Below are positions 1-57,631 of a stretch of 64,000 nucleotides of DNA, piece after piece (position 1 is the stretch's first letter; each line of letters opens with the position of its first letter). This stretch comes from an uncultured Candidatus Saccharibacteria bacterium. Lineage in GTDB: Bacteria; Patescibacteriota; Minisyncoccia; Phycocordibacterales; WO2-35-19. The position numbers and the translations under genes are program-made. The DNA lies in assembly GCA_964630525.1 (NCBI GenBank), contig CAZVUY010000001.1:114901-178900 (forward strand). The letters run 5' to 3'. The notes below the pieces were generated by a model. That model saw only the letters and a list, made by a program, of their open reading frames with translations, was not told the origin of the DNA and searched no databases.

Positions 1-308
1 CTAGTATTATCAGTGTGATAATAGCCACGATAGTATCTGTCCTTATTGCTGGGGGAATTTTCATACTATCACCTTTCAAAAAAGAACCACATCACCATTA
101 GGAGCACTGCAGCAACAATGCCCAGCACGGTGGTATATTTTATCTGCGGATCTTCCTGGATTTTCATTCAAATACCAACCCTTTCTTGACGCATTATATC
201 ATAAAAATTAGCAAAAACAATGACGTGTATTTATTATTGTTTGCCCAATTAAAACATTCAGTATATTGATGCTAAAAATCTTGTTTATGTTATAATTGGG
301 TCATGAGT

Positions 309-379
309 CCCGTAGTGAATTTTGGCTATAATTCCTACGGAATCAGTTACAAAATAACTTAGCCAAAATCTACTACGGG
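309..379 (+). repeat. ~70-bp miniature element with ~18-bp terminal inverted repeats (copy 1), ending directly at the ATG of the downstream gene
   Basis: The left arm cccgtagtgaattttggc and the right arm gccaaaatctactacggg are reverse complements with 2 mismatches. An inner palindrome attcctacggaat is present. A near-identical copy lies at 11843-11909. Confidence 0.6.
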
Positions 380-745
380 ATGAGAAACGATATAGATACA
401 AACTATTTCAAGGGGAAGCTCGAGGAGGAGTTGGTTTTGGTAGAAAAAGAGCTCAACGATGTTGGACGTAAAAACCCCGACAACGCCAAAGACTGGGAAG
501 CGGAACCGGCAGACTTAGACACCAGCACCGCTGATGATAGTGAAACCGCCGACAAAATAGAAGAGTTCGAGGGAAATACCGCCATTCTAAAAGAGCTCGA
601 AATCAGATACAACGATATCAAAGACGCTCTCGCTAAAATAGAAAAAGAGGAATATGGTTTTTGCGAAGTTTGCGGTGCGCCAATCGAAGAAGATCGTCTC
701 AAAGCCAATCAGGCCGCCCGCACTTGCAAAACTCATATGCAATAA
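380..745 (+). CDS. DksA/TraR-family C4 zinc-finger protein
   Basis: The C-terminal motif CEVCGAPIEEDRLKANQAARTCKTHMQ (CxxC...C) and an acidic coiled-coil N-terminus are typical of DksA/TraR. Confidence 0.6.
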   Translation: MRNDIDTNYFKGKLEEELVLVEKELNDVGRKNPDNAKDWEAEPADLDTSTADDSETADKIEEFEGNTAILKELEIRYNDIKDALAKIEKEEYGFCEVCGAPIEEDRLKANQAARTCKTHMQ

Positions 746-6013: not shown

Positions 6014-6117
6014 AAACTATTTTTTTAATTACATTTATTAAAAAAATAATTTGGGGCCCGAGGAGCACATGACGAGGGCCTGCTCTCAGGAACTTTTGAT
6101 TTTTACCTCTATACTAG

Positions 6118-6561
6118 CTACTTGCTACTAGATTCTCTTCTCATTTCTCTCTCCGTATCCCTTTTCTTGATCGTCTCGCGCTTATCAAACTTCTTCTTGC
6201 CGCGGACGATCGCGATCTCGAGTTTCAATTTTCTCCCCTTATTATACACCGAGATTGGCACTATTGTCAATCCTTTCTGAGCTTCCTCTTTGCTTAGGTG
6301 CTCTATTTCTTTTTTGGTGAGAAGGAGTCGCCGAGTCCGGAGGGGGTCGTATTCCTTAGGGGTGTTGGCTGGTTGGTAGGGAGGGATCTGCATATTGAGG
6401 ATAAAGGCTTCATTGCCGCGCACCGTTACGTGAGCGCCCTCGAGAGAACCTTGGCTATTTTTGAGAGATTTCACCTCAAAACCAAGCAGCTCAATACCAG
6501 CCTCGATTTTTTCGAGAATTTCGTAGTTAAAATGGGCTTTTTTGCTTTGAATAAGGGGCAT
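6118..6561 (-). CDS. smpB: SsrA-binding protein SmpB
   Basis: The whole-length sequence is characteristic of SmpB (KKAHFNYEILEKIEAGIELLGFEVKS...). Its C-terminal basic tail reads KKKFDKRETIKKR. Confidence 0.9.
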   Translation of the reverse strand: MPLIQSKKAHFNYEILEKIEAGIELLGFEVKSLKNSQGSLEGAHVTVRGNEAFILNMQIPPYQPANTPKEYDPLRTRRLLLTKKEIEHLSKEEAQKGLTIVPISVYNKGRKLKLEIAIVRGKKKFDKRETIKKRDTEREMRRESSSK

Positions 6562-9138: not shown

Positions 9139-9215
9139 CCGCCCTTAGCTCAGTTGGTTAGAGCACAGAGCTTATACCTCTGGGGTCCCACGTTCGAATC
9201 GTGGAGGGCGGACCA
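9139..9215 (+). tRNA. tRNA, anticodon loop CUUAUAC gives anticodon UAU (Ile, AUA-decoding type)
   Basis: The cloverleaf has acceptor CCGCCCU/AGGGCGG, D-arm GCUC-AGUUGGUUA-GAGC, anticodon stem CAGAG/CUCUG, T-arm CCACG-UUCGAAU-CGUGG, discriminator A and an encoded CCA. The 1:72 pair is C:G, which is unusual. Confidence 0.6.
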
Positions 9216-11656: not shown

Positions 11657-11842
11657 TTAGAGATTGTTCAAGAAGCGGCCCCTTTCTTTATTAGACATAT
11701 CAATCAAAACTGATCGGCGTTTGCCGAGGGTAGTCCTGGTTCTGTTTTTTGCATTAAAATGGTTCTGGCCAATCTTGCGAGTTACCAATTTGCCATTTTT
11801 AGTGACTTTTATGCGTTTAGCGAAAGACTTGTTAGTTTTCAT
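11657..11842 (-). CDS. rpmI: 50S ribosomal protein L35
   Basis: The L35-like sequence is MKTNKSFAKRIKVTKNGKLVTRKIGQNHFNAKNR.... The track ORF extends 18 codons upstream via a TTG into the inserted repeat element. The ATG at 11842 abuts the element end. Confidence 0.8.
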   Translation of the reverse strand: MKTNKSFAKRIKVTKNGKLVTRKIGQNHFNAKNRTRTTLGKRRSVLIDMSNKERGRFLNNL

Positions 11843-11909
11843 CCCGTAGTAGATTTTGGCAATTTTTAAAAACGATTCCGTAGGAATTATTGCCAAAATT
11901 CACTACGGG
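11843..11909. repeat. ~67-bp miniature element with terminal inverted repeats (copy 2, inverted relative to copy 1), inserted between infC and rpmI
   Basis: The sequence cccgtagtagattttggc...gccaaaattcactacggg reverse-complements to about 85% identity with 309-379. In both copies the ...ACTACGGG end is followed directly by a gene ATG. Confidence 0.6.
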
Positions 11910-11923
11910 ATTCATGGGCTACT

Positions 11924-15738: not shown

Positions 15739-16743
15739 ATGAAAAATAAAAAGACCTCACCCCAAAGAAAACTAGGTCCCAAAAAATCATTGGGGCAAAA
15801 TTTTTTGAGAGATCCGAAAATTTTGAAAAAAATAGTTGATTTCGCTCAAATCGAAAAAGGTGACACTGTGGTAGAGGTTGGACCAGGCGAAGGAGGCTTG
15901 ACGGAAGAGTTGTTAAAACAAGCAAAAAAAGTAATCGCGATCGAAAAAGATGAGGAGCTAGCAAAAAAGCTGGAAGATAAATTTCGGGATCAAATTCTAA
16001 ACTCAAGACTGAAGATTTTGGTGGGAGATATATTGGAGCTGAGAGCTGAGAGCTTAGAGCTTGAAGGAAGAAATCAGAAAAACAAAAACTCTGAGCTCTT
16101 AGCTCCAAGCTATAAGCTTGTCGGCAATATTCCGTACTACATTACCGGCGCTTTGTTTAAAAAATTTTTGGAAACAGAGCAACAACCAAAATCGATCACC
16201 TTTGTTGTCCAAAAAGAAGTGGCGGAGAGGATAGTGGCCCGAAACCCCAACTCCGCTAAAGCTTCGCGGGGCAAGCAAAAGGAAAGTATTTTGAGTATAT
16301 CGGTCAAGGTATATGGGGAACCAAAATTTGGCGGAGTCATCAAGGCTGGTAGCTTCTTTCCTAAACCAAAAGTTGATTCGGCTATTTTAAGTATTAGGAA
16401 TATCAGCAAAGAAAGATTCAATGATCTAATCCCCCCAACCCCCTTTACTTTAAAGGGGGAGGAGGCTCGAATAGAAAATAATTTTTTTGAAGAAATAACT
16501 CCCCCAACCACTCTTACAACAAGAGGGGAGTTGGAAAATAAATTTTTTGAAATATTAAAGACTGGCTTTGCTCACAAAAGAAAGCTGCTACTCCGCAACC
16601 TCCTCGACGCAAAAGTGTCAAAGGGCACCTTTGACACTTTTGCGATTAAAGAGGTTTTTGGAGTTTGTGGGCTGGATGAGAAAGCGCGGGCTGAAGATTT
16701 GAGAGTGGAAGACTGGCTAGCGCTTACACAAAAACTGGCCTAA
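15739..16743 (+). CDS. rsmA: 16S rRNA adenine dimethyltransferase RsmA/KsgA carrying two in-frame insertions
   Basis: It has LGQNFLRDPKIL...VVEVGPGEGGLTEEL and NIPYYIT. It is about 334 aa against about 260-290 typical. The first insert is the palindromic AGCT element at 16035-16119. The second is a ~65-bp x2 tandem duplication at 16431-16560. Confidence 0.85.
   Translation: MKNKKTSPQRKLGPKKSLGQNFLRDPKILKKIVDFAQIEKGDTVVEVGPGEGGLTEELLKQAKKVIAIEKDEELAKKLEDKFRDQILNSRLKILVGDILELRAESLELEGRNQKNKNSELLAPSYKLVGNIPYYITGALFKKFLETEQQPKSITFVVQKEVAERIVARNPNSAKASRGKQKESILSISVKVYGEPKFGGVIKAGSFFPKPKVDSAILSIRNISKERFNDLIPPTPFTLKGEEARIENNFFEEITPPTTLTTRGELENKFFEILKTGFAHKRKLLLRNLLDAKVSKGTFDTFAIKEVFGVCGLDEKARAEDLRVEDWLALTQKLA
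16035..16119. repeat. AGCT-rich palindromic miniature element inside the rsmA reading frame
   Basis: The left arm is ggagctgagagctgagagcttagagcttgaagg, an A-rich loop follows, and the right arm is ctctgagctcttagctccaagctataagctt. The same family occurs at 22327-22420, 22831/23247, 23857-23925, 53065-53115 and 55205-55280. Confidence 0.65.
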
Positions 16744-21753: not shown

Positions 21754-22326
21754 ATGGAGGAGAGTAATAAAATATTAAAAGAACAGATAGAAAAATTGCC
21801 AACAGCGCTTAAAAATTTTGTGCTTAGCAATGAGTGGACAAAAAAATTGAGAGTATACCTGGATAGTCTTCAGCTGGAAGAGTGGCAGAAAGTTTCGGTA
21901 GAAAACGAAGTGTTTTTGATCTTGATGGGTTTCGAAGAGTATGCAAATTTACCAGGCAACATATCCGAAAATACCGAAATGGATTTTGAGGTAGCCGAAA
22001 AAATATCGGAGTTTGTAATAAAAGATATTTTGAAACCAGTAGCAGATTTGGTAGTAAAAGAATTTGAAAAATCGGAACAACCGCCATCCAGTTCAATCGG
22101 CAACTCATTCGAACGTATCATCTTAAACCAAGCGAGGGCGATGCAGCCCGCCCGCCTCGCTAGCGAGAGCGTTGCGGGCGGGCCAGCCCGCGAAGCGGGT
22201 AGTGGTAGCCAGCAACCAGCACCTAGCAGCCGGGTTCCGGACAATCTGCCGACTGAAGATTTGAAACCAAAACCTACAACACCAAATTATTCTGGGCAGG
22301 ATCCGTATAGAGAACCGGTGGAGTAG
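21754..22326 (+). CDS. Hypothetical acidic cytoplasmic protein with REP-hairpin-encoded low-complexity C-terminus
   Basis: The C-terminal residues ...ARAMQPARLASESVAGGPAREAGSG... are encoded by the GC hairpin copy at 22147-22182. Confidence 0.45.
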   Translation: MEESNKILKEQIEKLPTALKNFVLSNEWTKKLRVYLDSLQLEEWQKVSVENEVFLILMGFEEYANLPGNISENTEMDFEVAEKISEFVIKDILKPVADLVVKEFEKSEQPPSSSIGNSFERIILNQARAMQPARLASESVAGGPAREAGSGSQQPAPSSRVPDNLPTEDLKPKPTTPNYSGQDPYREPVE

Positions 22327-22420
22327 GGAGCTTGGAGCTAAAAGCTTAGAGCTTAGAGGAGAAAAATAAAAAATGATATAATTTTGAAAGCTTACAGCTC
22401 TAAGCTCTAAGCTCTAAGCT
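22327..22420. repeat. AGCT-rich palindromic miniature element filling the intergenic spacer exactly (stop-to-start)
   Basis: The sequence is ggagcttggagctaaaagcttagagcttagagg, an A/T loop, then aagcttacagctctaagctctaagctctaagct. Confidence 0.65.
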
Positions 22421-22423
22421 AAA

Positions 22424-22843
22424 ATGCGTTTTCAAATCCCACAATTCATCGACGTTGAAGATAAAATATTTGGTCCTTTTACCTTGAAGCAATTTATCTA
22501 CTTAGCCGGGGGGGCCAGTATCGCCCTCGCCTGCGTTACTATTTTCGGCTTAGTTTTGGGGCTCATGATCGCCTCACCGATCATCATCCTCGCCGCCGCG
22601 CTCGCTTTTTATAAGGTCAACAACAGACCGTTCATCAACATGCTCGAGTCTGCTTTCAAATATCTCACCAAAGACAAGCTTTATATTTGGCAAAAAAGCG
22701 AAAAAACTGAAGCTGAGATGGTGGCGGAAGAGAAAAAGTATAGCTCGGTCATTGTACCCAATCTTGGTGATAGCAAACTCAAAGACATGAACTGGCAATT
22801 GGATGTGAAGAAAAAGGAAGATGATCTATTAGCTAAGAGCTGA
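22424..22843 (+). CDS. Small two-TM membrane protein (VirB3-like position and topology)
   Basis: It is 139 aa with a hydrophobic hairpin LAGGASIALACVTIFGLVLGLMIASPIIILAAALAF. It lies upstream of the VirB4-like ATPase, as in Gram-positive T4SS operons. Confidence 0.4.
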   Translation: MRFQIPQFIDVEDKIFGPFTLKQFIYLAGGASIALACVTIFGLVLGLMIASPIIILAAALAFYKVNNRPFINMLESAFKYLTKDKLYIWQKSEKTEAEMVAEEKKYSSVIVPNLGDSKLKDMNWQLDVKKKEDDLLAKS

Positions 22844-22863
22844 GAGCTTGGAGCTTAGAGTAG
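22831..22863. repeat. Left half-arm of AGCT palindromic element
   Basis: The sequence agctaagagctgagagcttggagcttagagtag supplies the stop codon of the upstream gene. Confidence 0.55.
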
Positions 22864-22866
22864 AAA

Positions 22867-23235
22867 ATGCTAAAAACTTATAGAGATTTACTCATATGGA
22901 AAAGGTCGATAGATTTGGCAACAAAAGTATATAAAGTTACAGAAATTTTTCCAAAATCAGAAATATACGGGATTGTATCCCAAATGAGAAGATCGGCTGT
23001 TTCTATATCTTCAAACATAGCAGAGGGAAGGAACAGGGGCACAAGAAAAGATTTTGCTCAATTTTTGAGAATAGCGTTGGGTTCTACAGCGGAACTAGAA
23101 TCTCAGACAGAGATATCAAAAAATTTGAATTTTATAAACCAGATTGAATATTCACAGATAATCTCTGAGACAAATGAAATAGGAATGATGTTGCGTGCTA
23201 TAATTAGAAAGCTGGACTCTAAGCTCCAAGCTTAA
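22867..23235 (+). CDS. Four-helix-bundle protein of the '23S rRNA intervening-sequence protein' family
   Basis: It is 122 aa with YRDLLIWKRSIDLATKVYKVTEIFPKSEIYGIVSQMRRSAVSISSNIAEG, typical of the TIGR02436-like family. Half-arms of the AGCT element flank it on both sides. Confidence 0.75.
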   Translation: MLKTYRDLLIWKRSIDLATKVYKVTEIFPKSEIYGIVSQMRRSAVSISSNIAEGRNRGTRKDFAQFLRIALGSTAELESQTEISKNLNFINQIEYSQIISETNEIGMMLRAIIRKLDSKLQA

Positions 23236-23247
23236 AGCTCTAAGCTT
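23212..23247. repeat. Right half-arm of AGCT palindromic element
   Basis: The sequence ctggactctaagctccaagcttaaagctctaagctt encodes the last residues and the stop of the four-helix-bundle gene. Confidence 0.55.
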
Positions 23248-23250
23248 TTT

Positions 23251-23871
23251 ATGAAAAATGCTACTCAAGAATTTGTACCGATAGACGATGTGCGCGATGG
23301 GATAGCCATCCTCAAAAGCGGTGGGATGCGCGGCGTACTCATGGCTTCAAGCGTAAACTTCTCCCTCAAGTCAGAAGAGGAGAGGCAGGCTATCCTATTC
23401 CAATTCCAAGATTTCTTAAACTCTCTGGATTTTTCGGTCCAGATCATCGTCCAATCAAGAAAGCTCGATATCAGACCCTATATCGCCCTTTTGGAGAACA
23501 GGCACAAAGAGCAAACCAACGACCTGATGAAAATCCAGATCGAACAATACATTGCTTTCATTAGAAGTTTTACCGAATCGACCAACATCATGACCAAAAA
23601 CTTCTTCATTGTGGTCCCATATGATGCCGCCATCATCTCTACCAAAACAGGGTTGTTGGACAATTTGCGAGGCAATAGGAACAAAGAGACAAAGGAAGAA
23701 GATTTCGAAGAAAGGCGCAATCAGCTCGAGCAGCGAATGGGAGTGGTAGAGCAGGGCTTGGTGCGCTCCGGCGTCAGGGTAGCCAAGCTCGGTACCGACG
23801 AAGTGGTCGAGTTGTTTTATAAGATATTTAATCCGGGAGAAACGGAGAAACCAATCAAGCTTGGAGCTTGA
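23251..23871 (+). CDS. VirB4/TrbE/CagE N-terminal-domain-like protein (separate ORF)
   Basis: The motif IDDVRDGIAILKSGGMRGVLMASSVNFSLKSEEERQAILFQFQDFLNSL resembles the N-terminal domain of VirB4-family ATPases. Its stop codon lies inside a palindromic element. Confidence 0.5.
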   Translation: MKNATQEFVPIDDVRDGIAILKSGGMRGVLMASSVNFSLKSEEERQAILFQFQDFLNSLDFSVQIIVQSRKLDIRPYIALLENRHKEQTNDLMKIQIEQYIAFIRSFTESTNIMTKNFFIVVPYDAAIISTKTGLLDNLRGNRNKETKEEDFEERRNQLEQRMGVVEQGLVRSGVRVAKLGTDEVVELFYKIFNPGETEKPIKLGA

Positions 23872-23925
23872 AGCTAATAGCTTAGAGGAAAAAACTTTAA
23901 ACTCCAAGCTCTTAGCTCTAAGCTT
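23857..23925. repeat. AGCT-rich palindromic miniature element separating the two VirB4-like ORFs
   Basis: The sequence is aagcttggagcttgaagctaatagcttagagg, then aaaaaactttaaa, then ctccaagctcttagctctaagctt. Confidence 0.65.
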
Positions 23926-23933
23926 TCAAAAAT

Positions 23934-25727
23934 ATGTTCGACTTTTTAAAGAAAAAACCAAAAGAAAATCTGACCACCGTTTCGATCTTGCCCAAATCGA
24001 TCACCGAGAGCTCCGAGCTTGAGCTGCGCGATATCTTGGCCCCGAGCGCCCTCAAGGTCAATGTTAAAGAACTGAATTTGGGCGAGAAAGTAGTGAGAAC
24101 TTTTTTCGTCATCTCTTATCCTAGGTTTTTGTCCGAAGATTGGTTCGCACCGGTCATCAACATGGACAAAATGTTTGATATTTCTATCTTCATCCACCCA
24201 GTTGAGACCGCGACCGTCCTACGTGGTTTTCAAAAAAAGGTAGCCGAAGTACAAAGCCAGATCAGGATCAGGGAAGAGAAGGGGTTGGTCCGCGACCCGA
24301 TTTTAGACACCGCCTATCAAGATTTGGAGAATTTGCGCGACCAACTCCAACAAGCCCAAGAGAAAATGTTTGAGGTCGGTCTCTATGTATCCATCTACGC
24401 CAACAATACCGACGAGCTCGACAAGGCCGAATCCGAGATCAAATCGATCCTCGAATCAAAGCTAGTCTATATGAAGCCAGCCCTCTTCCAGCAAGAGCAA
24501 GGCTTTCGCAGCATCCTACCAATCGGTGAGGACGAACTCGCTGTCCACTCGAAAATAAACTCTTCGCCGCTTTCAAGTATTTTCCCTTTTATCTCCTTCG
24601 ACCTCACTTCCGACAAGGGTATCCTCTACGGTATCAACCGACACAACTCCTCTCTGGTACTTTTCGACCGTTTCTCGCTTGAGAACTACAATTCCGTCAC
24701 CTTCGCCAAATCCGGTTCTGGTAAATCATACGCTACCAAACTCGAGATTCTTCGTACTTTGATGTTCGATACCGAAGTAATTGTGATGGATCCGGAAAAC
24801 GAGTACCAATATATGGCTGAAGCGGTGGGTGGTCGTTATTTCAATATTTCTCTCAATTCCGACCATCATATCAATCCGTTTGAGCTGCCGGTGCCCGGAG
24901 AAGATGAGTCGAGCGCCTCGGTCTTGCGCTCCCAAATCATCAACTTGGTAGGTCTTTTCCGGATCATGATGGGTGGCCTCACCGCTGAAGAAGACGCGAT
25001 CATCGACCGAGCTATCACTGAGACTTACGCCCTCAAAGACATCACCGCTGATTCTGATTTTAAAAATGTTGAACCACCACTTCTCTCCGACTTCGAGCTC
25101 GTGCTAGGTGGGATGGAGGGAGGGGAGTCACTCGCTCAACGCCTTTCCAAATACACCCGCGGCACCTGGTCCAACTTCATCAACAAACCTTCCAATATCG
25201 ACATCAATAAAAAGTTTGTCGTCTTCTCGATTCGCGACATGGAAGACGAGCTCAAACCGGTCGCTATGTACATCGTCATGCACTACATCTGGAATGCTAT
25301 TAGGCGGGAGATCAGGAAGCGTCTCTTGGTGATCGACGAGGCCTGGTGGATGATGAAATCTGAAGACACCGCCTCCTTTCTCCTGTCGCTCGCCAAACGT
25401 GGCCGCAAATATTATCTCGGGCTCGCCACCATCACTCAAGACGTCGACGACTTTTTGAAATCACCTTATGGCATGCCGATCGTCACCAACTCTTCAATCC
25501 AAATACTACTCAAACAGTCGCCAACCACCATCGACCGACTGCAGGAAGTTTTCAACCTGACCAACGAAGAGAAATACTTGCTCATCGAGTCGGGGGTAGG
25601 TGAGGGAATATTTTTCGCCGGCCTCAAACACGTAGCGATCAAGATCATTGCCTCCTACACCGAAGACCAGATCATCACCTCCGATCCGTCTCAAATCTTG
25701 GCGATCAAAAAACAAAATGCAAAATAA
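23934..25727 (+). CDS. VirB4/TraC/CagE-family type IV secretion ATPase (ATPase domain)
   Basis: It has the Walker A FAKSGSGKSY, the Walker B LLVIDEAWWMM, and the C-terminal LGLATITQDVDDF and KQSPTTIDRL motifs. Confidence 0.8.
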   Translation: MFDFLKKKPKENLTTVSILPKSITESSELELRDILAPSALKVNVKELNLGEKVVRTFFVISYPRFLSEDWFAPVINMDKMFDISIFIHPVETATVLRGFQKKVAEVQSQIRIREEKGLVRDPILDTAYQDLENLRDQLQQAQEKMFEVGLYVSIYANNTDELDKAESEIKSILESKLVYMKPALFQQEQGFRSILPIGEDELAVHSKINSSPLSSIFPFISFDLTSDKGILYGINRHNSSLVLFDRFSLENYNSVTFAKSGSGKSYATKLEILRTLMFDTEVIVMDPENEYQYMAEAVGGRYFNISLNSDHHINPFELPVPGEDESSASVLRSQIINLVGLFRIMMGGLTAEEDAIIDRAITETYALKDITADSDFKNVEPPLLSDFELVLGGMEGGESLAQRLSKYTRGTWSNFINKPSNIDINKKFVVFSIRDMEDELKPVAMYIVMHYIWNAIRREIRKRLLVIDEAWWMMKSEDTASFLLSLAKRGRKYYLGLATITQDVDDFLKSPYGMPIVTNSSIQILLKQSPTTIDRLQEVFNLTNEEKYLLIESGVGEGIFFAGLKHVAIKIIASYTEDQIITSDPSQILAIKKQNAK

Positions 25728-39006: not shown

Positions 39007-39543
39007 CTATTCCGCGTTGGTGTAAACTTCTCTCACCTCGTCGTTTTCTTCAAGCTCCTCAATTAGCTTATCGAGAATTAACCCATCTGATTCGCTGACT
39101 GATACTTTCAAATTGGGTTCCCAAGAACTGTCGGCCGATTTGGTAAAAGCCCAAGAAGCTGAACCAGGGGCGGCCAGTTCGAAACCATTTTTAGAAAGAA
39201 TATGCTTGATCTCCTGAGCTGCTTTATTTCGGTTGTCTGTGAGAGCATCAATGATAAGAGCACACCCCCCCGGACCGTAAGCTTCATAAGTTATCTGCTC
39301 CAAGTTTCCGCCCTCGCTACCGCTTTTGCCTTTGCTGACTGCCCGTTCAATGTTGTCATTTGGTACATTGGCGGCTCGAGCTTTTTCAATCGCACTTCGT
39401 AGGCTGGGCGAATTTATATCCCCACCACTCTTTTTTGACTCGATTGTAATAAAACGGACTAGTTTGCCAAAAATCTTACTCTTCTGGGCATCGGTGACCG
39501 CTTTTTTATTCTTTATTTTTGACCATTTATTGTGTCCGGACAT
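39007..39543 (-). CDS. YebC/PmpR-family transcriptional regulator (short form)
   Basis: The N-terminus MSGHNKWSKIKNKKAVTDAQKSKIFGKL matches the YebC family. Confidence 0.8.
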   Translation of the reverse strand: MSGHNKWSKIKNKKAVTDAQKSKIFGKLVRFITIESKKSGGDINSPSLRSAIEKARAANVPNDNIERAVSKGKSGSEGGNLEQITYEAYGPGGCALIIDALTDNRNKAAQEIKHILSKNGFELAAPGSASWAFTKSADSSWEPNLKVSVSESDGLILDKLIEELEENDEVREVYTNAE

Positions 39544-39567: not shown

Positions 39568-39618
39568 AAACCCCACCCGGCTTTTCAGCCACCCTCCCCT
39601 TGTTCAGGGGAGGGAAGG
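39568..39618. repeat. GC-rich REP-like element (ccccaccc...ccaccctcccctt-gttcagg-ggagggaagg), left copy flanking DUF559 gene
   Basis: An inverted copy lies at 40002-40049 and a direct copy at 46317-46362. Confidence 0.6.
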
Positions 39619-39626
39619 CACCACAT

Positions 39627-39977
39627 TCACGCTAAATGGTTTTGTATGGTACTCAACACTTCGTTTATATTTTGTTCAATTTGAGCATTGGAAAATCTCA
39701 AAACTTTATAATCTAAATCTGTTAAAAACTTGTCCCGTACCTCATCATACCCTTTGGCCTCTCTGGTATTATGTATTTTACCGTCAAGTTCAATGATTAG
39801 TTTCTTTTCCTTGCAATAAAAATCAAGAATATAACCACTTACACTGTGTTGTCTTCTAAACTTAATTCCCAATCTTTTATCTTTCAAATACCACCATAAT
39901 TTTTCTTCTTGAGAAGTTTGGTTTTTTCTTAATTCTTTTCGACGATCAACAAGTTTATGAATATTATGAATTTTCAC
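39627..39977 (-). CDS. DUF559 / Vsr-like endonuclease-domain protein
   Basis: KLWWYLKDKRLGIKFRRQHSVSGYILDFYCKEKKLIIELDGKIH is typical of DUF559. A ~48-bp inverted REP pair flanks it. Confidence 0.7.
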   Translation of the reverse strand: MKIHNIHKLVDRRKELRKNQTSQEEKLWWYLKDKRLGIKFRRQHSVSGYILDFYCKEKKLIIELDGKIHNTREAKGYDEVRDKFLTDLDYKVLRFSNAQIEQNINEVLSTIQNHLA

Positions 39978-40001
39978 TACACTCTAAATTATCGCGGTTT
40001 T

Positions 40002-40049
40002 CCCTCACCTGAACAAGGGGAGGGCTACGCGAAGCGAGGGGTGGGGTTT
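40002..40049. repeat. GC-rich REP-like element, right (inverted) copy flanking DUF559 gene
   Basis: ccctcacctgaacaaggggagggc...cgaggggtggggttt is the reverse complement of the left copy, with a few mismatches. Confidence 0.6.
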
Positions 40050-48239: not shown

Positions 48240-48315
48240 GCGCCCGTAGCTCAGTCGGTAGAGCAGCTCCCTTTTAAGGAGATGGTCGTAGGTTCGATTC
48301 CTACCGGGCGCACCA
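48240..48315 (+). tRNA. tRNA-Lys (anticodon UUU)
   Basis: Acceptor GCGCCCG/CGGGCGC, D-arm GCUC-AGUCGGUA-GAGC, anticodon loop CUUUUAA, T-arm GUAGG-UUCGAUU-CCUAC and an encoded CCA. Confidence 0.85.
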
Positions 48316-49779
48316 GAAAGGAAATTGCAAGTCAGAGCTCGCCGCCTCGCTCTGCTCGGCGGCTCGCGCGTATTGTATTTTCGGCTCAAAACGGAATTCG
48401 CGATTTCGCAAAACATGGTTCGCGCCGATGTTTTTTAGAAATGCTGTCATTTTGGCAAAATCATTTTCGTTAGTCAGATTCGCGGCTTGATTCAAGGATA
48501 AAACAAATTCACGAGCCGGTTCGAGCCAAGACGCTCCTTTTTGCTCGATGTCGGTAATTTTCTCCTCCAATCGCACTTTTTCATACACGAGAGAGTTCTT
48601 TTTGGCGGCGTATTCGTCTGTGGATAGCGCGTCAGAAAGATAAAGGTTGAGAAGTTTTTCGAGCTTTGCCTCAATCTGCGCGAGTTCTCTTTTTAGAGTT
48701 TCCGCTTCTGTTCGCGCTTCCTCCTTTGCTTGCTCCTCGTCTTGTTCCAACGCCGCCAAAACTTTCTTGGTGTCTTGGCCCGATAAAGAAACTTTTTGAA
48801 GATAAGTTTTGATTTGCGCGGCAAGCATAGTTTCGCTGATGTAGCGTTCCGGGCACGCGCCTCGTTTTTTGGTACAGCGATAGTAGGTATAAGAGCCACC
48901 ATTGCCTTTTGCATATTGCGCGGTAATAGAACAACCGCACGAGGCGCATTTGAGTAGTCCGAGGAACGCGAAACTGTGTTTGCGGTCTGGTCGCACCTTG
49001 CCGCGCTTTTGCATAACTTCTTGGCATTTATCAAAAAGTTTCTTTGAAATTAACGGCTCGTGTTTTCCCTCAAAAGTTTCCGACTTGTACCTCATCAAAC
49101 CAGTGTAGAAAGGATTTTGGAGTATGGACTGAACATTGCTTAATGATATTTTCTTGCCTTTGTTGCCGAGCAGTTTCTTTTTCTCACACCAATTTGCGAG
49201 AGCAGAAAGTGGATATGCTCCGGTGGCGTAGAGTTCAAACATTTTTCTCACTTTCGGTGCTTTGTCGGGGTCAATATCAATTATTCTCGTCTTGGGATTG
49301 TTGAGATAGCCCACCGGAGCCCAGCCGGGCCATACTCCATTTCGTATCTTTTGCCGCAAACCTCTTTTTACATTCTCTCTCAAATTGTCTACGAAATATT
49401 TACTCTGTCCGAAAGCAATGTTCAACATAAACAAGCCTTGTGGTGTCGGTTCAAACCAAAAAGTCGGAAACTTGAGGGAACGAATCAAGCCGCGATCAAT
49501 CAGATGTATGATTTTGCCTCCGTCCACCGAATTTCGGGCAAGGCGGTCGGGGTGCCACGCGATAATGCCGTCTGCTTTTTGTCGTTCAATCAATGACAGC
49601 ATTTCTGCGAACTTCGTTCGCCCGGGCTCTTTTGCGGTTTTCGCCTCCTCAAAGGAGGCGACAATTTCAAGTTTTTCTTTGACGGCGAATGCGCGCAACT
49701 CTTCAAGTTGCGCCTGAATAGAAAGCACCTGTCTGTCCTCTTCCTCTGTACTTTTTCTTGCGTAGAGTATGTATCTCAT
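48301..49779 (-). CDS. Large serine recombinase (resolvase/invertase catalytic domain + recombinase domain + zinc ribbon)
   Basis: It carries YARKST and the active-site Ser region, ...VGYLNNPKT..., CxxC...C, and a coiled-coil C-terminus. The ORF reads through IR-A into the tRNA, so the true 3' end is uncertain. GC content is visibly higher than in flanking genes. Confidence 0.8.
   Translation of the reverse strand: MRYILYARKSTEEEDRQVLSIQAQLEELRAFAVKEKLEIVASFEEAKTAKEPGRTKFAEMLSLIERQKADGIIAWHPDRLARNSVDGGKIIHLIDRGLIRSLKFPTFWFEPTPQGLFMLNIAFGQSKYFVDNLRENVKRGLRQKIRNGVWPGWAPVGYLNNPKTRIIDIDPDKAPKVRKMFELYATGAYPLSALANWCEKKKLLGNKGKKISLSNVQSILQNPFYTGLMRYKSETFEGKHEPLISKKLFDKCQEVMQKRGKVRPDRKHSFAFLGLLKCASCGCSITAQYAKGNGGSYTYYRCTKKRGACPERYISETMLAAQIKTYLQKVSLSGQDTKKVLAALEQDEEQAKEEARTEAETLKRELAQIEAKLEKLLNLYLSDALSTDEYAAKKNSLVYEKVRLEEKITDIEQKGASWLEPAREFVLSLNQAANLTNENDFAKMTAFLKNIGANHVLRNREFRFEPKIQYARAAEQSEAASSDLQFPFWCAR
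48309..48408. repeat. ~100-bp perfect inverted repeat IR-A (partner 49826-49925) bracketing the serine recombinase; begins inside the tRNA-Lys 3' end
   Basis: gcaccagaaaggaaattgcaagtcagagctcgcc...cggaattcgcgatttcg has an exact reverse complement at 49826-49925. Confidence 0.7.
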
Positions 49780-49825
49780 GTTGTTTTGATTGAATTAAGG
49801 ATTAAAAATTTTTCTTCCCCTCAAA

Positions 49826-49925
49826 CGAAATCGCGAATTCCGTTTTGAGCCGAAAATACAATACGCGCGAGCCGCCGAGCAGAGCGAGGCGGCGAGCTCT
49901 GACTTGCAATTTCCTTTCTGGTGCA
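49826..49925. repeat. IR-A' (inverted copy of 48309-48408)
   Basis: It is an exact reverse complement of IR-A. The 26-bp IR-C ggattaaaaatttttcttcccctcaa (49799-49824) precedes it, and its partner is at 50061-50086. Confidence 0.7.
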
Positions 49926-50012
49926 GGATACTTGAATTAGTGCGAACCCACCGCGCCTTCGGCGCGGCACAACCCCCGCCAAAAATGCAGGCGGCGAAGC
50001 CGCACCGCTCAA
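49921..50012. repeat. ~92-bp perfect inverted repeat IR-B (partner 51006-51097) bracketing a membrane-protein gene
   Basis: gtgcaggatacttgaattagtgcgaacccaccgcgccttcggcgcggcacaacccccgccaaaaatgcaggcggcgaagccgcaccgctcaa has an exact reverse complement at 51006-51097. Confidence 0.7.
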
Positions 50013-50257
50013 AACCGCAAAAGAGCCCGGAAAAAACATCGGCGCGAACCATGTTTTGAATTGAGGGGAAGAAAAATTTTTAATCCAATAAATTCCCAAG
50101 GAAGAAGCCGCAATCGTGCGGATTTTTCGTTGCCCTTGACGTAAGGTACGGAATATGCTATGCTTATTTGCGAAAGATTGAGCCATGGTGGCTTGGTCGC
50201 AATAGCACATTTTCAACTCAAAAAACGGAGGTGCAGCTTGAGCGCAGAAACGATTGG

Positions 50258-50849
50258 CATGGTTTCTGGGCTGTTGGTGGTGGCGAGCGTCATCCCTTAC
50301 AGCATCAGAACCCACCAGGGCAAGGTGCAGCCGAACCTGACGAGCTGGTCGCTCTGGACGCTGATCGGCCTCGCCCTCTTGCTCACTTACAAGAGTTCGG
50401 GTGCCGAAGCGAACGTCTGGCCAGCGGTGTTCGGGTTCACTAACCCGCTCCTCATCACCTTGCTTGTTCTCAAACAGCATGGTGGGTGGACGAAGCCAAA
50501 CCGAGTCGAGGTCGCTTGTCTCGTGTTTGGCCTGTTGTCTCTCGGCCTGTGGCTGGGAGTTCGCGAAAACAAGGAGATGGCCCAATGGGCTCTCTATCTG
50601 GCAATTGTCGCGGACTTGTTCGCGGCGATTCCCACGATTGTGTTCGTGTGGACGCAACCGAATGGCGACCGACCGTTTGCTTGGGCGTTCTTCGCCGTCG
50701 GCTATGGTCTGGCAATCTTCGCCATTACCGAACACACCTTCGCGAACTACGTTCTCCCGCTCTACATGTTCTTCGGAGCGTTGAGCGTTACTCTCCCACT
50801 CGTTCTGTATCGGTGGCGACACAAAGTCCCGTTGTCGGAGTGGGTATGA
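50258..50849 (+). CDS. Hypothetical polytopic membrane protein (about 6 TM) inside IR-B/IR-B' segment
   Basis: The sequence from MVSGLLVVASVIPYS... onward is GC-rich. The track ORF starts at 50160. The antisense ORF 49821-50975 is an alternative that I judge spurious. Confidence 0.45.
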
Positions 50850-51005
50850 GTCAGAGACGAATAGCAAATCCGAGGCCCCTTGTGGTAGCAACATCACCAC
50901 TTGGGGCCTTTCTTCTTTTTGATTTGTTTGGTTATTTTTCATACAATACATTTGGTGTTTGCTTCGCAAACTCACATTTATTCGCCGTCAAAGAAAAACT
51001 TGAAA

Positions 51006-51097
51006 TTGAGCGGTGCGGCTTCGCCGCCTGCATTTTTGGCGGGGGTTGTGCCGCGCCGAAGGCGCGGTGGGTTCGCACTAATTCAAGTATCCTGCAC
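51006..51097. repeat. IR-B' (inverted copy of 49921-50012)
   Basis: It is an exact reverse complement of IR-B. Confidence 0.7.
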
Positions 51098-51280
51098 AAA
51101 ATAGCGGAGCAATTTTGTGCGCCCGAGCAAGCAAACTGCTTTGCTTGCGGGTAGGAATCGAACGGCGGAATGTGAAATTTGGAGCACCAAATTTCCATGA
51201 GCCGGTGCCCAGACCAAAAATTTGTGACTGACAAATTTTTGAGTCGAGGGAGATATTCCTACCGAGATTTTATTATTATC

Positions 51281-51309
51281 TTGACAAATCCTTCCCAAAG
51301 AGGTAATTT
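51281..51309 (+). promoter_or_regulatory. Sigma70-like promoter (TTGACA-17-TAATTT) with strong SD AAGGAGG before 51387
   Basis: ttgacaaatccttcccaaagaggtaattt is followed by ggctaaggaggtcgcATG. Confidence 0.45.
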
Positions 51310-51386
51310 TGTGGTGGAACCGACTCAGACTTTTCCTATATGGGATTGCTCTGAAATCTACAAGCCTATATGGCTAAGGAGGTCGC

Positions 51387-51923
51387 ATGATAACACAAAG
51401 AGCCTTCAAAAAGCTCGCTGAACAGAACCGTTGGTTGGTTGGTGCCTTGGAAAATCTGAAGCATCCCGACGACGACAGACCGTTTGAACGACGGGTCAAG
51501 GAGAGCATTGCCTTTATCGCTTTTCGCCCATTTGAGAAGCTGAGTCCAAACTGGCTGGCAAAGGGTGAATTTTACCCAATCTTCCACAAATCTCGGATGG
51601 CTGGAAGTGACGGAGCAATGTGTAGCTCCTATCCGCTTATTGTTTTTCATAAAGAGGGTTGGGAAGGCTTCAAGTATGTCCAACTCTCTCCACTCAACAC
51701 GGGTCTGACGATCGGGAAATGTATGGAGTGGTATGTAGACACTGCAAAGAAGAATGGATATCCAAAATGTATTGCCTTTGATGCAGTTATTATCCCGCTT
51801 CAAGTTCGCATCAACCCACACCGAATGATCGCCGAGTGTTACGAGATTTACCGATTTCCCGAGCCACTTGATTTTAAGTTTGACGACTTCAAGAAGTGGC
51901 TGGTAACCGCACCGCAGGAGTAA
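51387..51923 (+). CDS. Hypothetical protein (island cargo)
   Basis: It is 178 aa with no motif I recognise. It has a strong RBS and promoter. Confidence 0.5.
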   Translation: MITQRAFKKLAEQNRWLVGALENLKHPDDDRPFERRVKESIAFIAFRPFEKLSPNWLAKGEFYPIFHKSRMAGSDGAMCSSYPLIVFHKEGWEGFKYVQLSPLNTGLTIGKCMEWYVDTAKKNGYPKCIAFDAVIIPLQVRINPHRMIAECYEIYRFPEPLDFKFDDFKKWLVTAPQE

Positions 51924-52202
51924 TCAGAGGCTCGCCTAGTAGTGGAGACACGAACGGCGAGTCTTCTTCGTTTTTATATTGACAATTCGTGCACAAAACA
52001 ATATTCTTCCGTCTAAGTCAGGTTCCTTGCGGAATGGAATGGGTAGAACGCGGTCAAGTCTGAACTGCAAGCTAGTATAGAGTTCGTGCCATTCTTCACT
52101 TGCTCCAACGTATAAGTGAGCGAGGCTTCTCTTGGGTTGGAAATCTGACAAGTGCCCGGGCGTTCACGCGTCCGGGCTATAATTTATACAAATAAGTATT
52201 TT

Positions 52203-52655: not shown

Positions 52656-53264
52656 ATGACTAAAACCCAAAACCCCAATATCGTCGTTGTTTTAAATGAT
52701 ATAAGGAGTAACGAAAATGTCGGCTCGATTTTTCGTACCTGCGATGCGGCTGGCGTCTCCAAGATTTTTTTATGTGGCTACACTCCAGCTCCGGTTGACC
52801 GATTTGGCCGGGAAAACAAGGGGTTGACCAAAGCGTCTTTGGGAGCCGAGAGGTGGGTTCTGTGGGAAAAAGTAGAAAGTTTGCAGGGGGCTATTGAAAA
52901 AATTAAGCAGCTTCCTTCGGGGAATTCTCAAAAATGCACGGATATTTTCTTGCTAGAAAATTCCTCGTGCTCGGCTCAGTCAGCCTCGCAAGGCATTTTT
53001 GATAACACCCACTCAGGAAGCTGCTTAGTGGTTGGAGTCGAACAATCAGAAAATTCGATTGATTACCGCGAGCTCAAAAAATCTACGCTCCTAGCTTCTA
53101 GCTCTCAGCTTGCTCTTGTTTTTGGAAATGAGGTAGGTGGTTTGTCTCAGGAAGACTTAAAACTTTGTGATCTGGTGGCCGAAATTCCAATGCATGGTCG
53201 CAAAGAGTCCCTCAATGTGGCCGTCTCAGTGGGTGTCGTCCTGTTTTCGTTAGTAGCTGACTGA
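52656..53264 (+). CDS. SpoU/TrmH-family RNA 2'-O-methyltransferase with in-frame insertion
   Basis: It has NVGSIFRTCDAAG, LVFGNEVGGLSQEDL and a C-terminal SPOUT knot. An inserted segment at about 52900-53115 ends in an AGCT-element arm (53088-53115). Confidence 0.8.
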   Translation: MTKTQNPNIVVVLNDIRSNENVGSIFRTCDAAGVSKIFLCGYTPAPVDRFGRENKGLTKASLGAERWVLWEKVESLQGAIEKIKQLPSGNSQKCTDIFLLENSSCSAQSASQGIFDNTHSGSCLVVGVEQSENSIDYRELKKSTLLASSSQLALVFGNEVGGLSQEDLKLCDLVAEIPMHGRKESLNVAVSVGVVLFSLVAD

Positions 53265-55204: not shown

Positions 55205-55280
55205 AAAGCTTAAAACTAAGAGCTTTTAGCTTAGAGTGTAAGGGAATAAACTTCAAGCTCCTAGCTCTCAGCTCTAAGCC
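55205..55280. repeat. AGCT-rich palindromic miniature element between mutM and murE; encodes the last residues and stop of the Mur ligase
   Basis: The sequence is aagcttaaaactaagagcttttagcttagagtg, then taagggaataaact, then tcaagctcctagctctcagctctaagcc. Confidence 0.6.
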
Positions 55281-57224: not shown

Positions 57225-57373
57225 AAATTAAGTGGCCAGTAGCAAGTAGCTAGTAGCTGGATATAATATAGCAAACCTAAGGTTATTTTGCCGTTGCATT
57301 TTTTAAAGCTTTCTGTTACTGTATTTAAGCCAATTTCCTAGATACTGGATACTGGCTACTAAATACTAAAATT

Positions 57374-57631
57374 ATGCCAATCACAAGTTCAGCCAAAAAA
57401 GCCCTCCGTTCTTCCAAAAGGAAGAAGGTTTTCAATTTGAAAAGAAAGAACGAAATGCAGGGGGTGATCAAGGAATACAAAAAACTCCTCGCTGGGAAGA
57501 AAGGTGAGGAAGCCAAGAAGCTTCTCCCTAAGCTCCAGCAGGCGATCGACAAAGCTAGCAAAAAAGGGGTGATCAAAAAGAACACTGCTTCTCGCAAAAA
57601 GTCTCGTTTGATGAAAAAACTGGCTAAATAA
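57374..57631 (+). CDS. rpsT: 30S ribosomal protein S20
   Basis: It begins MPITSSAKKALRSSKRKKVFNLKRKNEM.... Confidence 0.9.
   Translation: MPITSSAKKALRSSKRKKVFNLKRKNEMQGVIKEYKKLLAGKKGEEAKKLLPKLQQAIDKASKKGVIKKNTASRKKSRLMKKLAK

What the first reader, a model, noticed from the sequence alone, without database searches (positions are those of the whole stretch)
22327..22420. Family of AGCT-rich palindromic miniature elements that precisely fill intergenic spacers (not a CRISPR array)
Copies are seen at 16035-16119, 22327-22420, 22831-22863/23212-23247, 23857-23925, 53065-53115 and 55205-55280. Each has a left arm of (G/A)AGCT(T/C)(A/T)(G/A) repeats ending ...TTAGAGG, a short A/T-rich loop, and a reverse-complementary right arm ...CTCTAAGCT. 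Several copies span exactly from one gene stop to the next start and contribute the stop codon or last codons to the upstream gene. This looks like a REP/MITE-like repeat class particular to this genome. The copies cluster in the VirB4 region.
Basis: seen in the sequence. Interest (0 to 1): 0.6.

Follow-up and report, generated by a model that had tools for sequence, protein, structure and literature searches.

The report
Heptamer-armed hairpin elements resembling rRNA intervening sequences
The AGCT-rich palindromes are real hairpin inserts built from 7-base repeats, and the full-length copy carries the same small gene and has the same architecture as the "intervening sequences" known from bacterial 23S rRNA, but here they sit between and inside protein-coding genes of a candidate-phyla-radiation bacterium.

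Summary
AGCTNNN heptamer runs occur 38 times against 0.14 expected by chance. Five of the six reported copies fold into 17-31 bp stems (z -3.6 to -4.9). The copy at 53086-53110 is a single array with no hairpin. Copy A lies in frame inside the RsmA gene, not in a spacer.

The arms are inverted tandem arrays of a 7-nt unit: AGCT plus a purine-rich spacer on the left and a pyrimidine-rich spacer on the right.

Copy C (22831-23247, 417 nt) encloses a PF05635/TIGR02436 four-helix-bundle gene. That matches the published Coxiella 23S rRNA intervening sequence: 428 nt, a 28-bp stem, an S23p ORF, tandem heptamers upstream of the ORF, and RNase III cleavage.

All 11 PF05635 genes sampled in Patescibacteria sit between inverted heptamer arrays of several sequence types (AGCT, CTAGG, CACTGT, AATTCAT).

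The short copies look like ORF-less derivatives. The loop of copy B retains both ends of the gene.

Relatives show empty sites, replacements and half copies. No transposase or target duplication was found.

Best reading: these are IVS-type selfish hairpin elements living outside rRNA, probably cut by RNase III. This is a new variant of a known kind. The family is not specific to this genome.

The parts
16035..16119 (+). Copy A: AGCT-heptamer hairpin (arms 16037-16061 and 16087-16118) translated in frame inside the RsmA/KsgA gene (15739-16743) as ELRAESLELEGRNQKNKNSELLAPSYKLV.
   Evidence: Fold of -34.5 kcal/mol, z -3.8. ORF and Pfam RrnaAD match. Homologue alignment shows an insert of about 17 aa relative to the 12-aa basal loop. 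One + frame is free of stop codons.
22327..22420 (+). Copy B (the finding itself): hairpin filling the spacer between ORF190 (stop at 22324-22326) and the PrgI-family gene (ATG at 22424). Its loop is a collapsed remnant of a 4HB gene.
   Evidence: Fold of -37.5 kcal/mol, z -4.8. The empty site in L005 reads TAA-A-ATG. The loop resembles the 5' and 3' ends of element C (shuffle p = 0.001). Orthologous copies are present in L001, L126-128, L249 and L258.
22831..23247 (+). Copy C: full-length element of 417 nt. Left arm 22831-22863, four-helix-bundle gene 22867-23235 (122 aa), right arm 23212-23247. The PrgI stop codon (22841-22843) lies in the left arm. The 4HB stop codon (23233-23235) lies in the right arm.
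   Evidence: Inverted repeat of 31 nt, 87% complementary. Arm duplex of -49.1 kcal/mol, z -7.2, with lag-7 identity 0.61 and 0.48. PF05635 match E = 4.8e-38. TIGR02436 match E = 7e-38.
23857..23925 (+). Copy D: hairpin between the TraC-like N-terminal VirB4 piece (23251-23871) and the VirB4 ATPase gene (ATG at 23934). The TraC-like stop codon TGA at 23869-23871 lies inside the arm.
   Evidence: Fold of -27.6 kcal/mol, z -3.6. L005 has a 10-nt spacer with no hairpin. L001 has an unrelated AGCTAGT-type hairpin after an intact KIS* end. Orthologous copies are present in L258 and L249.
53086..53112 (+). Copy E: a solo array of right-arm type (CGCTCCT AGCTTCT AGCTCTC AGCT) in frame inside the SpoU/TrmH methylase gene (52656-53264). 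It is not a palindrome.
   Evidence: No significant fold (z -0.46). Alignment to PDB 1zjr shows a 6-aa insertion, STLLAS, at this place.
55205..55280 (-). Copy F: hairpin between the Mur ligase gene (55261-56640, minus strand, last codons ...LRAES* read from the arm) and the Fpg gene (ATG at 55200, minus strand).
   Evidence: Sense-strand fold of -37.5 kcal/mol, z -4.9. The sense strand folds about 14 kcal/mol better than the antisense strand. Pfam assignments.
57230..57375 (.). Related family, not AGCTTAG-type: inverted arrays of AGTAGCT / GATACTG heptamers with a TATAAT in the loop. The same type occupies site D in L001 and site C in L001 and L005.
   Evidence: TRF period-7 arrays at 57230-57257 and 57341-57360. 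Sequence read. The fold is weak (z -1.6).

Best explanation
The elements are hairpin-forming inserts whose two arms are inverted tandem arrays of the heptamer AGCTNNN.

They belong to the same kind of element as the ORF-containing intervening sequences (IVS) of 23S rRNA. The full-length form is copy C. It is a stem of about 30 bp made of heptamers that encloses a PF05635 / TIGR02436 four-helix-bundle (S23p/Avd-like) gene. The short copies A, B, D and F are ORF-less hairpins and E is a half copy. All of them appear to derive from such units.

They behave as selfish or near-neutral DNA. They are gained, lost and swapped at a few permissive places in a very compact genome. Those places are 1-10 nt gene junctions, which is why they seem to 'precisely fill' spacers, and surface loops of proteins, where stop-free in-frame copies persist.

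Inferred, not shown: once transcribed, the 17-31 bp stem is cut by RNase III, as was demonstrated for the Coxiella IVS. The insert would then segment the operon transcript rather than block it.

Inferred more weakly: spread and replacement occur by recombination between arrays, which act as short homology arms. This could use copies elsewhere in the genome or imported DNA. A transposase would not be needed.
For: Shown here:
- Statistics and folds of the copies.
- Copy C is 417 nt with a 31-nt inverted repeat and a PF05635 ORF.
- The Coxiella IVS is 428 nt with a 28-bp terminal stem and an S23p ORF. It has 2-3 tandem GACAGAT heptamers upstream of the ORF, variable in number between strains. RNase III cuts at the first repeat (PMC4990558).
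- All 11 PF05635 genes sampled in Patescibacteria lie between inverted heptamer arrays: window, L249, L251, L252, L254, L256, L257 (two), L258 and L259 (two). The first eight of these were scored: seven have a flank duplex z of -2.8 to -7.2 and a lag-7 identity of 0.38-0.61 against 0.19-0.29 at other lags (down to 0.38 vs 0.24 in one arm), and L251 fails the duplex test. The other three (L258, L259 x2) were judged by eye.
- L252 (T4SS-like operon) and L254 (iPGM|sigma-70 locus) share homologous arms plus gene, with a run of about 20-23 identical arm bases, but have unrelated flanks. The arms therefore travel with the gene.
- Polymorphism. L005 has no hairpin at B or D. L001 (92-94% nt identity) has a different occupant at C and an unrelated heptamer hairpin at D, with no divergence spike in the adjoining genes. 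L258 keeps only the loop and right arm at B.
- The loop of B matches both ends of the 4HB unit.
- Copy A is an in-frame insertion kept in RsmA homologues down to 53-60% identity.
Against: - No RNA data exist, and no RNase III gene lies in the 64 kb window.
- Sense versus antisense fold energies are mixed across 14 copies, so RNA-level selection is not demonstrated.
- The loops of A, D and F show no similarity to the 4HB unit. Their derivation from it is inferred only from shared arm type.
- No mobility enzyme and no target duplication were found, so the mechanism of movement is unknown.
- B, C and D are shared by relatives at 66-78% nt identity. This fits long vertical inheritance, and therefore possibly function, as well as it fits selfish persistence.
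- Most AGCT-heptamer arrays found in other phyla are not next to a PF05635 gene: only 3 of 120 are.
- A genome-wide census of the source organism could not be made.
Confidence: 0.55

Rival explanations
1. The hairpins are host-selected cis-regulatory RNA structures of the operon. Possible roles are intercistronic processing or stability sites, or devices that bring the upstream stop and downstream start together for translational coupling. On this view they are maintained in situ rather than being mobile DNA.
For: Junction D carries a heptamer-armed hairpin of unrelated sequence in several lineages: AGCT type in the window, L249 and L258; AGCTAGT type in L001; ATAATAC type in L250; and a short AATT hairpin in L251. 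B, C and D are retained across 66-78% nt divergence. In every intergenic copy the downstream ATG lies 3-9 nt past the stem base and the upstream stop lies at or in the 5' arm. The sense strand folds better in all four short window copies, by 14 kcal/mol in F.
Against: L005 and L259 have functional-looking operons with no hairpin at D, and L005 has none at B. Copies also sit inside unrelated coding genes (RsmA, SpoU). A homologous arms-plus-gene unit occurs at an unrelated locus. The strand asymmetry is not consistent in relatives. No clear compensatory changes were seen between orthologous copies.
Confidence: 0.2
2. The arrays arise locally by replication slippage of heptanucleotide simple-sequence repeats, a repeat class known to be over-represented in prokaryotes. 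Their palindromic look would then be a by-product of the self-complementary AGCT core. Nothing moves.
For: The number of units differs between orthologous copies; L249 D has one more unit per arm than the window. Heptamer number varies between Coxiella strains. AGCT arrays without a partner arm are common in other phyla: 114 of 139 metagenome hits are not hairpins by the ungapped test. The literature notes heptamers as the commonest long SSR unit (PMC4679880).
Against: Left and right arms have complementary spacer composition (76% against 26% purine), which slippage alone does not produce. Whole units of 70-420 nt are present or absent at precise junctions. A homologous arms-plus-gene unit is found at unrelated loci.
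Confidence: 0.1
3. They are classical MITE or REP elements, mobilised in trans by a transposase (IS630/Tc1-like, IS200/IS605 TnpA or a RAYT) encoded elsewhere in the genome.
For: They have terminal inverted repeats, small size, several copies and insertion polymorphism. Site B is compatible with a TA duplication: GAGTA[...]TAAAATG against the empty GAATAAAATG.
Against: The TA reading at B is ambiguous, and no consistent duplication exists at A, C, D or F (sequence reading). Loops are unrelated between copies, unlike MITE families. At C about 45 nt of spacer was replaced rather than interrupted. No transposase or RAYT domain was found in the roughly 50 window ORFs scanned. The only recombinase is a serine integrase beside tRNA-Lys.
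Confidence: 0.07

Closest known systems
ORF-containing 23S rRNA intervening sequences (Coxiella burnetii helix-45 IVS; Leptospira IVS)
   Same: Size (417 nt against 428 nt). Terminal inverted repeats that form a stem of about 30 bp. A PF05635 (S23p) ORF in the loop. Tandem heptamers in the 5' arm just upstream of the ORF, with variable copy number. Sporadic distribution among relatives. ORF decay or deletion that leaves the RNA hairpin (PMC4990558; window data).
   Different: The elements here are not in rRNA. They sit between protein-coding genes of an operon and inside coding sequences. Short ORF-less copies are present. RNase III excision was not tested here. The heptamer sequence is AGCTNNN rather than GACAGAT.
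Rickettsia palindromic elements (RPE)
   Same: Palindromic repeats inserted in frame into protein-coding genes and translated as extra peptide segments in tolerant loops. Copy A in RsmA does this, and E in SpoU partly does. What is known about RPEs is from my own knowledge (Ogata et al. 2000); the review PMC10969869 was listed but I did not read it.
   Different: RPEs have conserved consensus sequences of about 100-150 bp. They have no heptamer array structure and no associated PF05635 gene. They are restricted to Rickettsia.
Neisseria Correia/nemis and enterobacterial ERIC or REP/BIME elements
   Same: Small intergenic palindromes co-transcribed with flanking genes. Nemis hairpins are reported RNase III substrates, and REP elements stabilise upstream mRNA (from my own knowledge, not checked here).
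   Different: Those families have defined consensus sequences. Correia elements make TA target duplications, and REPs have RAYT partners. None is built of heptamer arrays or carries a 4HB gene.
Intergenic heptamer direct repeats (TAACTGA repeats of Beggiatoaceae, Cyanobacteria and Bacteroidetes; cyanobacterial STRR heptamers)
   Same: Tandem 7-nt units placed immediately upstream of start codons, carrying stop codons in the forward frames, patchily distributed across phyla and of unexplained function (PMC4679880). The STRR comparison is from memory.
   Different: Those are direct arrays that are predicted to be unstructured. Here two arrays are inverted and form a long stem, often enclosing a gene.

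Membership tests
23S rRNA intervening sequence (IVS), ORF-containing type | Inserted in a 23S rRNA helix (9, 25 or 45), replacing its tetraloop | tested here: not met
   Rfam finds no rRNA in the window. The elements lie between or inside protein-coding genes.
23S rRNA intervening sequence (IVS), ORF-containing type | Complementary termini that form a long stem (28 bp in Coxiella) | tested here: met
   C has 31-nt arms, 87% complementary, with a duplex of -49.1 kcal/mol, z -7.2. A, B, D and F have z of -3.6 to -4.9.
23S rRNA intervening sequence (IVS), ORF-containing type | S23p / PF05635 ORF in the loop | tested here: met
   Met for copy C only: PF05635 E = 4.8e-38 and TIGR02436 E = 7e-38. 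B keeps remnants of both gene ends. A, D and F have no ORF.
23S rRNA intervening sequence (IVS), ORF-containing type | Tandem heptamers in the 5' arm upstream of the ORF, variable in number | tested here: met
   Period-7 arrays by TRF. Unit number differs between the window and L249. Coxiella comparison from PMC4990558.
23S rRNA intervening sequence (IVS), ORF-containing type | Excised from the transcript by RNase III | not testable with these tools
   No RNA data are available. No RNase III gene was found among the window ORFs scanned. The rest of the genome was not available.
MITE | Target-site duplication and a cognate transposase-encoding IS with the same ends | tested here: not met
   No consistent duplication at A, C, D or F, and only an ambiguous TA at B. 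No transposase domains in the window. A genome-wide search was not possible.
MITE | Copies share a conserved internal sequence | tested here: not met
   The loops of A, D and F are unrelated to each other and to C.
REP/BIME | Strictly extragenic short palindromes with a RAYT partner | tested here: not met
   A and E lie inside coding sequences. No RAYT or Y1 transposase is present in the window.
Rickettsia palindromic elements | In-frame insertion into coding genes, translated | tested here: met
   Copy A adds about 17 aa in an RsmA loop with the frame kept open. This is a resemblance in behaviour only, as the sequence families are unrelated.
CRISPR array | Regularly spaced identical direct repeats with unique spacers | tested here: not met
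   The units are contiguous 7-mers in inverted pairs at scattered loci.
Intrinsic terminator | GC-rich stem followed by a U tract | tested here: not met
   No sense-strand terminator is predicted at any element between 21700 and 24100. The stems are followed by AAAATG, TTTTTATG or TTCAAAAATATG.

The most novel reading that the evidence does not exclude
PF05635 four-helix-bundle genes flanked by inverted heptamer arrays may form a widespread, so far unnamed class of transposase-less mobile element. The classical 23S rRNA IVSs would be only the rRNA-resident minority of this class. On this reading the 4HB protein (a relative of the DGR accessory protein Avd) recognises its own heptamer arrays as RNA or DNA and promotes their maintenance or copying. 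ORF-less hairpins and solo heptamer arrays scattered through many bacterial genomes would be its relics. This could also account for part of the long-noted excess of heptanucleotide repeats in prokaryotes.
Probability: 0.25. Interest if true: 0.8.

Novelty: new variant of a known kind. Interest (0 to 1): 0.6.

Why it matters
The origin, mobility and function of rRNA intervening sequences and of their S23p/four-helix-bundle ORF have been open questions since about 1990. Here the same architecture appears outside rRNA, in many polymorphic copies. These include full-length copies, collapsed copies, half copies, in-frame coding copies and alternative occupants of the same junction in close relatives. 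That turns a one-copy curiosity into a comparative system.

Three things become testable. First, whether array sequence type co-varies with the 4HB protein. Second, whether RNase III cuts operon transcripts at these sites. Third, how elements are exchanged without a transposase.

There are also practical consequences for annotating Patescibacteria genomes. Gene ends, short ORF extensions and 'insertions' in housekeeping proteins such as RsmA, SpoU and Mur ligase are often repeat-derived.

Tried and rejected
- **Genome-wide census.** They returned mostly other phyla and nothing related to the window. Copy number in the source genome therefore remains unknown.
- **PF05635 next to AGCT arrays in other phyla.** Only 3 of 120 arrays are adjacent to such a gene. 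The link holds for 4HB genes to arrays, not for arrays to 4HB genes.
- **4HB search in viral contigs.** The three-sequence alignment found no relatives.
- **Strand test for RNA-level selection.** Comparing sense and antisense fold energy gave mixed results: about 8 copies favour sense and 5 favour antisense.
- **Target-site duplication.** None is consistent across copies.
- **Similarity of the A, D and F loops to the 4HB unit.** Not significant.
- **Horizontal transfer of element C between the window and L249.** Third-position identity is 0.57 for the 4HB gene against 0.36-0.45 for host genes. However, L258 shows equal divergence of element and flanks, so this stays unresolved.
- **Imported recombination tract around C and D in L001.** No divergence spike was seen.
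- **VirB4 split caused by element D.** Rejected. The 206-aa TraC-like piece is a separate gene in all 120 listed relatives.
- **Translational bypass or intron-like removal of D.** Dropped for the same reason.
- **Restriction-site avoidance.** AGCT is not depleted in the window (273 observed against 270 expected).
- **Rfam.** No family matches at the elements.
- **Terminator scan.** Negative.

Full report
**Organism and setting.** The window comes from a Patescibacteria (CPR) genome. The closest named relatives are Candidatus Zambryskibacteria and Paceibacterota MAGs. A Logan contig from SRR13355620 is 100% identical over 13.6 kb. The finding lies in a conserved T4SS-like operon with this gene order: ORF190, a PrgI-family gene, a TraC-like N-terminal VirB4 piece, then the VirB4 ATPase.

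- AGCTNNRAGCTNNRAGCT with one mismatch gives 38 hits against 0.14 expected. AGCTNNNAGCT gives 33 against 0.78.
- All multi-unit runs fall at the six reported places. TRF gives period 7.
- Each arm is a tandem array of 3-5 heptamers of the form AGCT plus three bases. Left-arm spacers are purine-rich (76%; GAG, TGG, TAG, AAG). Right-arm spacers are pyrimidine-rich (26% purine; CTA, CCA, CTT). The arms are therefore complementary beyond the self-complementary AGCT core.
- A, B, D and F fold at -27.6 to -37.5 kcal/mol with z of -3.6 to -4.9. The two arms of C are 31 nt long, 87% complementary and 354 nt apart.
- Two corrections are needed. The copy at 53065-53115 is one array only, with z -0.46. 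It lies in frame inside the SpoU methylase gene, where it adds about 6 aa relative to PDB 1zjr. Copy A is not intergenic. It is translated inside RsmA as ELRAESLELEG...SELLAPSYKLV.

**What the 22831/23212 pair encloses.** The arms flank a 122-aa ORF (22867-23235). It matches PF05635, '23S rRNA-intervening sequence protein', at E = 4.8e-38, and TIGR02436, 'four helix bundle protein', at E = 7e-38. It also shows weak similarity to the DGR protein Avd. The whole unit is 417 nt.

The published Coxiella burnetii IVS has these features (PMC4990558):
- It is 428 nt long.
- It carries an S23p ORF of the same family.
- It has two or three tandem GACAGAT heptamers just upstream of the ORF, varying between strains.
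- RNase III cuts it at the first repeat.

Element C therefore has every structural feature of an ORF-containing IVS except its location.

**Is the link between this gene and heptamer arms general?**
- I looked at PF05635 genes found by protein similarity alone, in L249, L251, L252, L254, L256, L257 (two), L258 and L259 (two).
- All are flanked by inverted heptamer arrays.
- Eight genes, including the window's, were scored. Seven gave a flank duplex z of -2.8 to -7.2 and lag-7 identity of 0.38-0.61, against 0.19-0.29 at other lags. L251 failed the duplex test; its left arm, read by eye, overlaps the called start codon. The remaining three genes (L258, L259 x2) were judged by eye.
- The array sequence type differs between elements: AGCT with various spacers, CTAGG, CACTGT and AATTCAT.
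- L252 (T4SS-like operon) and L254 (between iPGM and sigma-70) share homologous arms and gene but have unrelated flanks. The inner arm is identical over a run of about 20-23 bases. The arms plus the gene therefore form one unit that has reached different loci.

**Are the short copies derived from such units?**
- For B, probably. Its loop begins like the 5' end of C: TAGAGGAGAAAA..ATAAAAA against TAGAGTAGAAAATGCTAAAAA. It ends like the 3' end of the gene: TGATATAATT against TGCTATAATT. The shuffle p is 0.001.
- The same loop is kept in L258, where the left arm has been lost.
- For A, D and F the loops are unrelated. Their derivation rests only on shared arm type.

**Comparative evidence for turnover.** DNA identity to the window is 98% for L126 and L127, 92-94% for L001, about 77% for L258, 75-80% for L005, about 75% for L250 and L251, and 66-73% for L249.

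State of each junction in the relatives:

| Site | Occupants |
|---|---|
| B | AGCT hairpin in the window, L001, L249 and (as a half copy) L258. A 4HB element in L251, L252, L257 and L259. A DUF4143 ATPase gene in L250. Empty (TAA-A-ATG) in L005. |
| C | AGCT-armed 4HB element in the window, L126-128, L258, L249 and L259; a 4HB element with CTAGG-type arms in L256 and L257. A short AGTAGCT-array spacer with a TAAAAT box in L001 and L005; L250 and L251 keep only the TAAAAT-box spacer. |
| D | AGCT hairpin in the window, L258 and L249. An unrelated AGCTAGT-type hairpin placed after the intact stop in L001. An ATAATAC-type hairpin in L250. A short AATT hairpin in L251. Nothing in L005 or L259. 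|

Between the window and L001 the genes next to C and D are 92-98% identical right up to the junctions. The exchange is therefore precise at the element boundaries.

The empty spacers are 1 nt at B and 10 nt at D. Insertion into such spacers explains why the elements seem to fill them exactly. It also explains why upstream ORFs now end on stop codons inside the arms: ...KLGA* in the window against ...KIS* at the empty site.

**Mechanism.**
- Shown: the architecture, the association with PF05635, presence/absence and replacement among relatives, and tolerance of in-frame copies.
- Inferred from the Coxiella work: RNase III cuts the stem in the transcript, which makes insertion into an operon or an rRNA survivable.
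- Inferred weakly: exchange happens by recombination between arrays. The reasons are that no transposase, RAYT or reverse transcriptase is present in the window, no target duplication exists, and replacements are exact at the arrays.
- Tests that did not help: the strand asymmetry of folding is mixed. The element-versus-host divergence test is ambiguous, with the element less diverged in L249 but equally diverged in L258.

**Rivals.** A host regulatory role is not excluded. The same junctions keep hairpins of different sequence in different lineages, and the downstream start always lies 3-9 nt past the stem. Against this, some relatives lack the hairpins, and copies also occur in unrelated genes and loci. 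Pure slippage, classical MITE/REP elements, CRISPR arrays and terminators fit poorly.

**Breadth.** AGCT heptamer arrays, many of them hairpins of the same design, occur in Acidobacteriota, Selenomonadaceae, Bacteroidota, Cyanobacteria, Planctomycetota and others. One pair even flanks a ribosomal protein L20 gene (L087). Only 3 of 120 lie next to a PF05635 gene. The literature records unexplained intergenic heptamer repeats (PMC4679880). I found no description of IVS-type elements outside rRNA or of their heptamer-armed derivatives.

**Verdict.**
- The feature is real.
- The best description is a family of IVS-type, heptamer-armed hairpin elements with ORF-less derivatives, living in operon junctions and coding loops of a CPR genome.
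- This is a new variant of a known kind, of moderate to high interest.

Noticed in passing
window 16035-16119 (RsmA loop) and homologues P0001-P0120: The same loop of RsmA, between the GDIL and GNIPYY motifs, is a hot spot. 39 of 120 homologues have a 12-aa loop. The others carry at least six unrelated insert types of 19-52 aa: ELRAESLEL..., LPDEFFSIFFEEKSAK..., KVSEGVFEMPRSQKTPFD..., EIENLLKIAKLKIEN..., DLEIQNIFSPQAQKC... and ESEQKILERTSAAKH.... Those whose DNA was read (L249, L250) are palindromic; the others were seen as protein only. The common 12-aa form NYELRIKNY is encoded in L005 (the one DNA read) by an AATTAYG heptamer array.
   Followed up: partly
L249, L251, L252, L256, L257, L258, L259 (sites flanking PrgI): PF05635 four-helix-bundle genes recur immediately upstream and/or downstream of the PrgI-family gene of the T4SS-like operon across distant Patescibacteria. 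L257 and L259 have one on each side. This could reflect a preferred landing site or a functional tie to the operon.
   Followed up: partly
window 39592-40024: A DUF559 (Vsr-like endonuclease) ORF at 39627-39977 on the minus strand is bracketed by 25-nt inverted repeats (CCCTCCCCTTGTTCAGGGGAGGGAA). It lies next to a YebC/TACO1 gene (39007-39543) whose Pfam match is broken into two stretches. This is another gene-in-a-hairpin unit, of a different repeat family.
   Followed up: no
window 56056-56135: A perfect 25-bp inverted repeat (AAAATAATGGGAAGAAAAATTTTGA, 30-nt loop) lies in frame inside the Mur ligase gene. Related GGGAAGAAAAATTTT arms occur at 49799-49824 and 50061-50086.
   Followed up: no
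window 57230-57375, 6112-6131; L001 10641-10744: A second heptamer family (AGTAGCT / TACTAGC units), often followed by a TATAAT or TAAAAT box. It occupies sites C and D in relatives that lack the AGCTTAG-type elements. It may carry a promoter.
   Followed up: partly
window 308-380 and 11841-11911: Two copies of a further palindrome family, with arms TCCCGTAGT(G/A)(A/G)ATTTTGGC and loops of 25-31 nt.
   Followed up: no
window 48240-52000: tRNA-Lys (48240-48315) is followed by a large serine recombinase gene (48301-49779, minus strand), ORFs with no Pfam match, and higher GC (0.46-0.50). This is probably an integrated element.
   Followed up: no
window 23251-25727: VirB4 is encoded as two genes: a 206-aa TraC-like piece (PF26593) and a 597-aa ATPase. 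The split is conserved in all 120 closest relatives listed, so it is ancestral and was not caused by element D.
   Followed up: yes
window 9139-9215: ARAGORN calls a tRNA-Ile with anticodon TAT, next to tRNA-Arg(CCT). This anticodon is uncommon in bacteria.
   Followed up: no
window 60777-64000: One long ORF starts at 60777 and runs off the end of the window (more than 1070 aa). It is Cys-, Thr- and Gly-rich and is probably a large surface protein. The ORF tool does not list it because it is open-ended.
   Followed up: no
L087 5921-6410 (genome-contig hit): In an unrelated bacterium, inverted AGCT-heptamer arrays (GGCTAGAAGCTAGCAGCT ... AGCTTCTAGCTTCTAGCTTCTAGCT) bracket the ribosomal protein L20 gene. 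Such arms can therefore enclose housekeeping genes.
   Followed up: no
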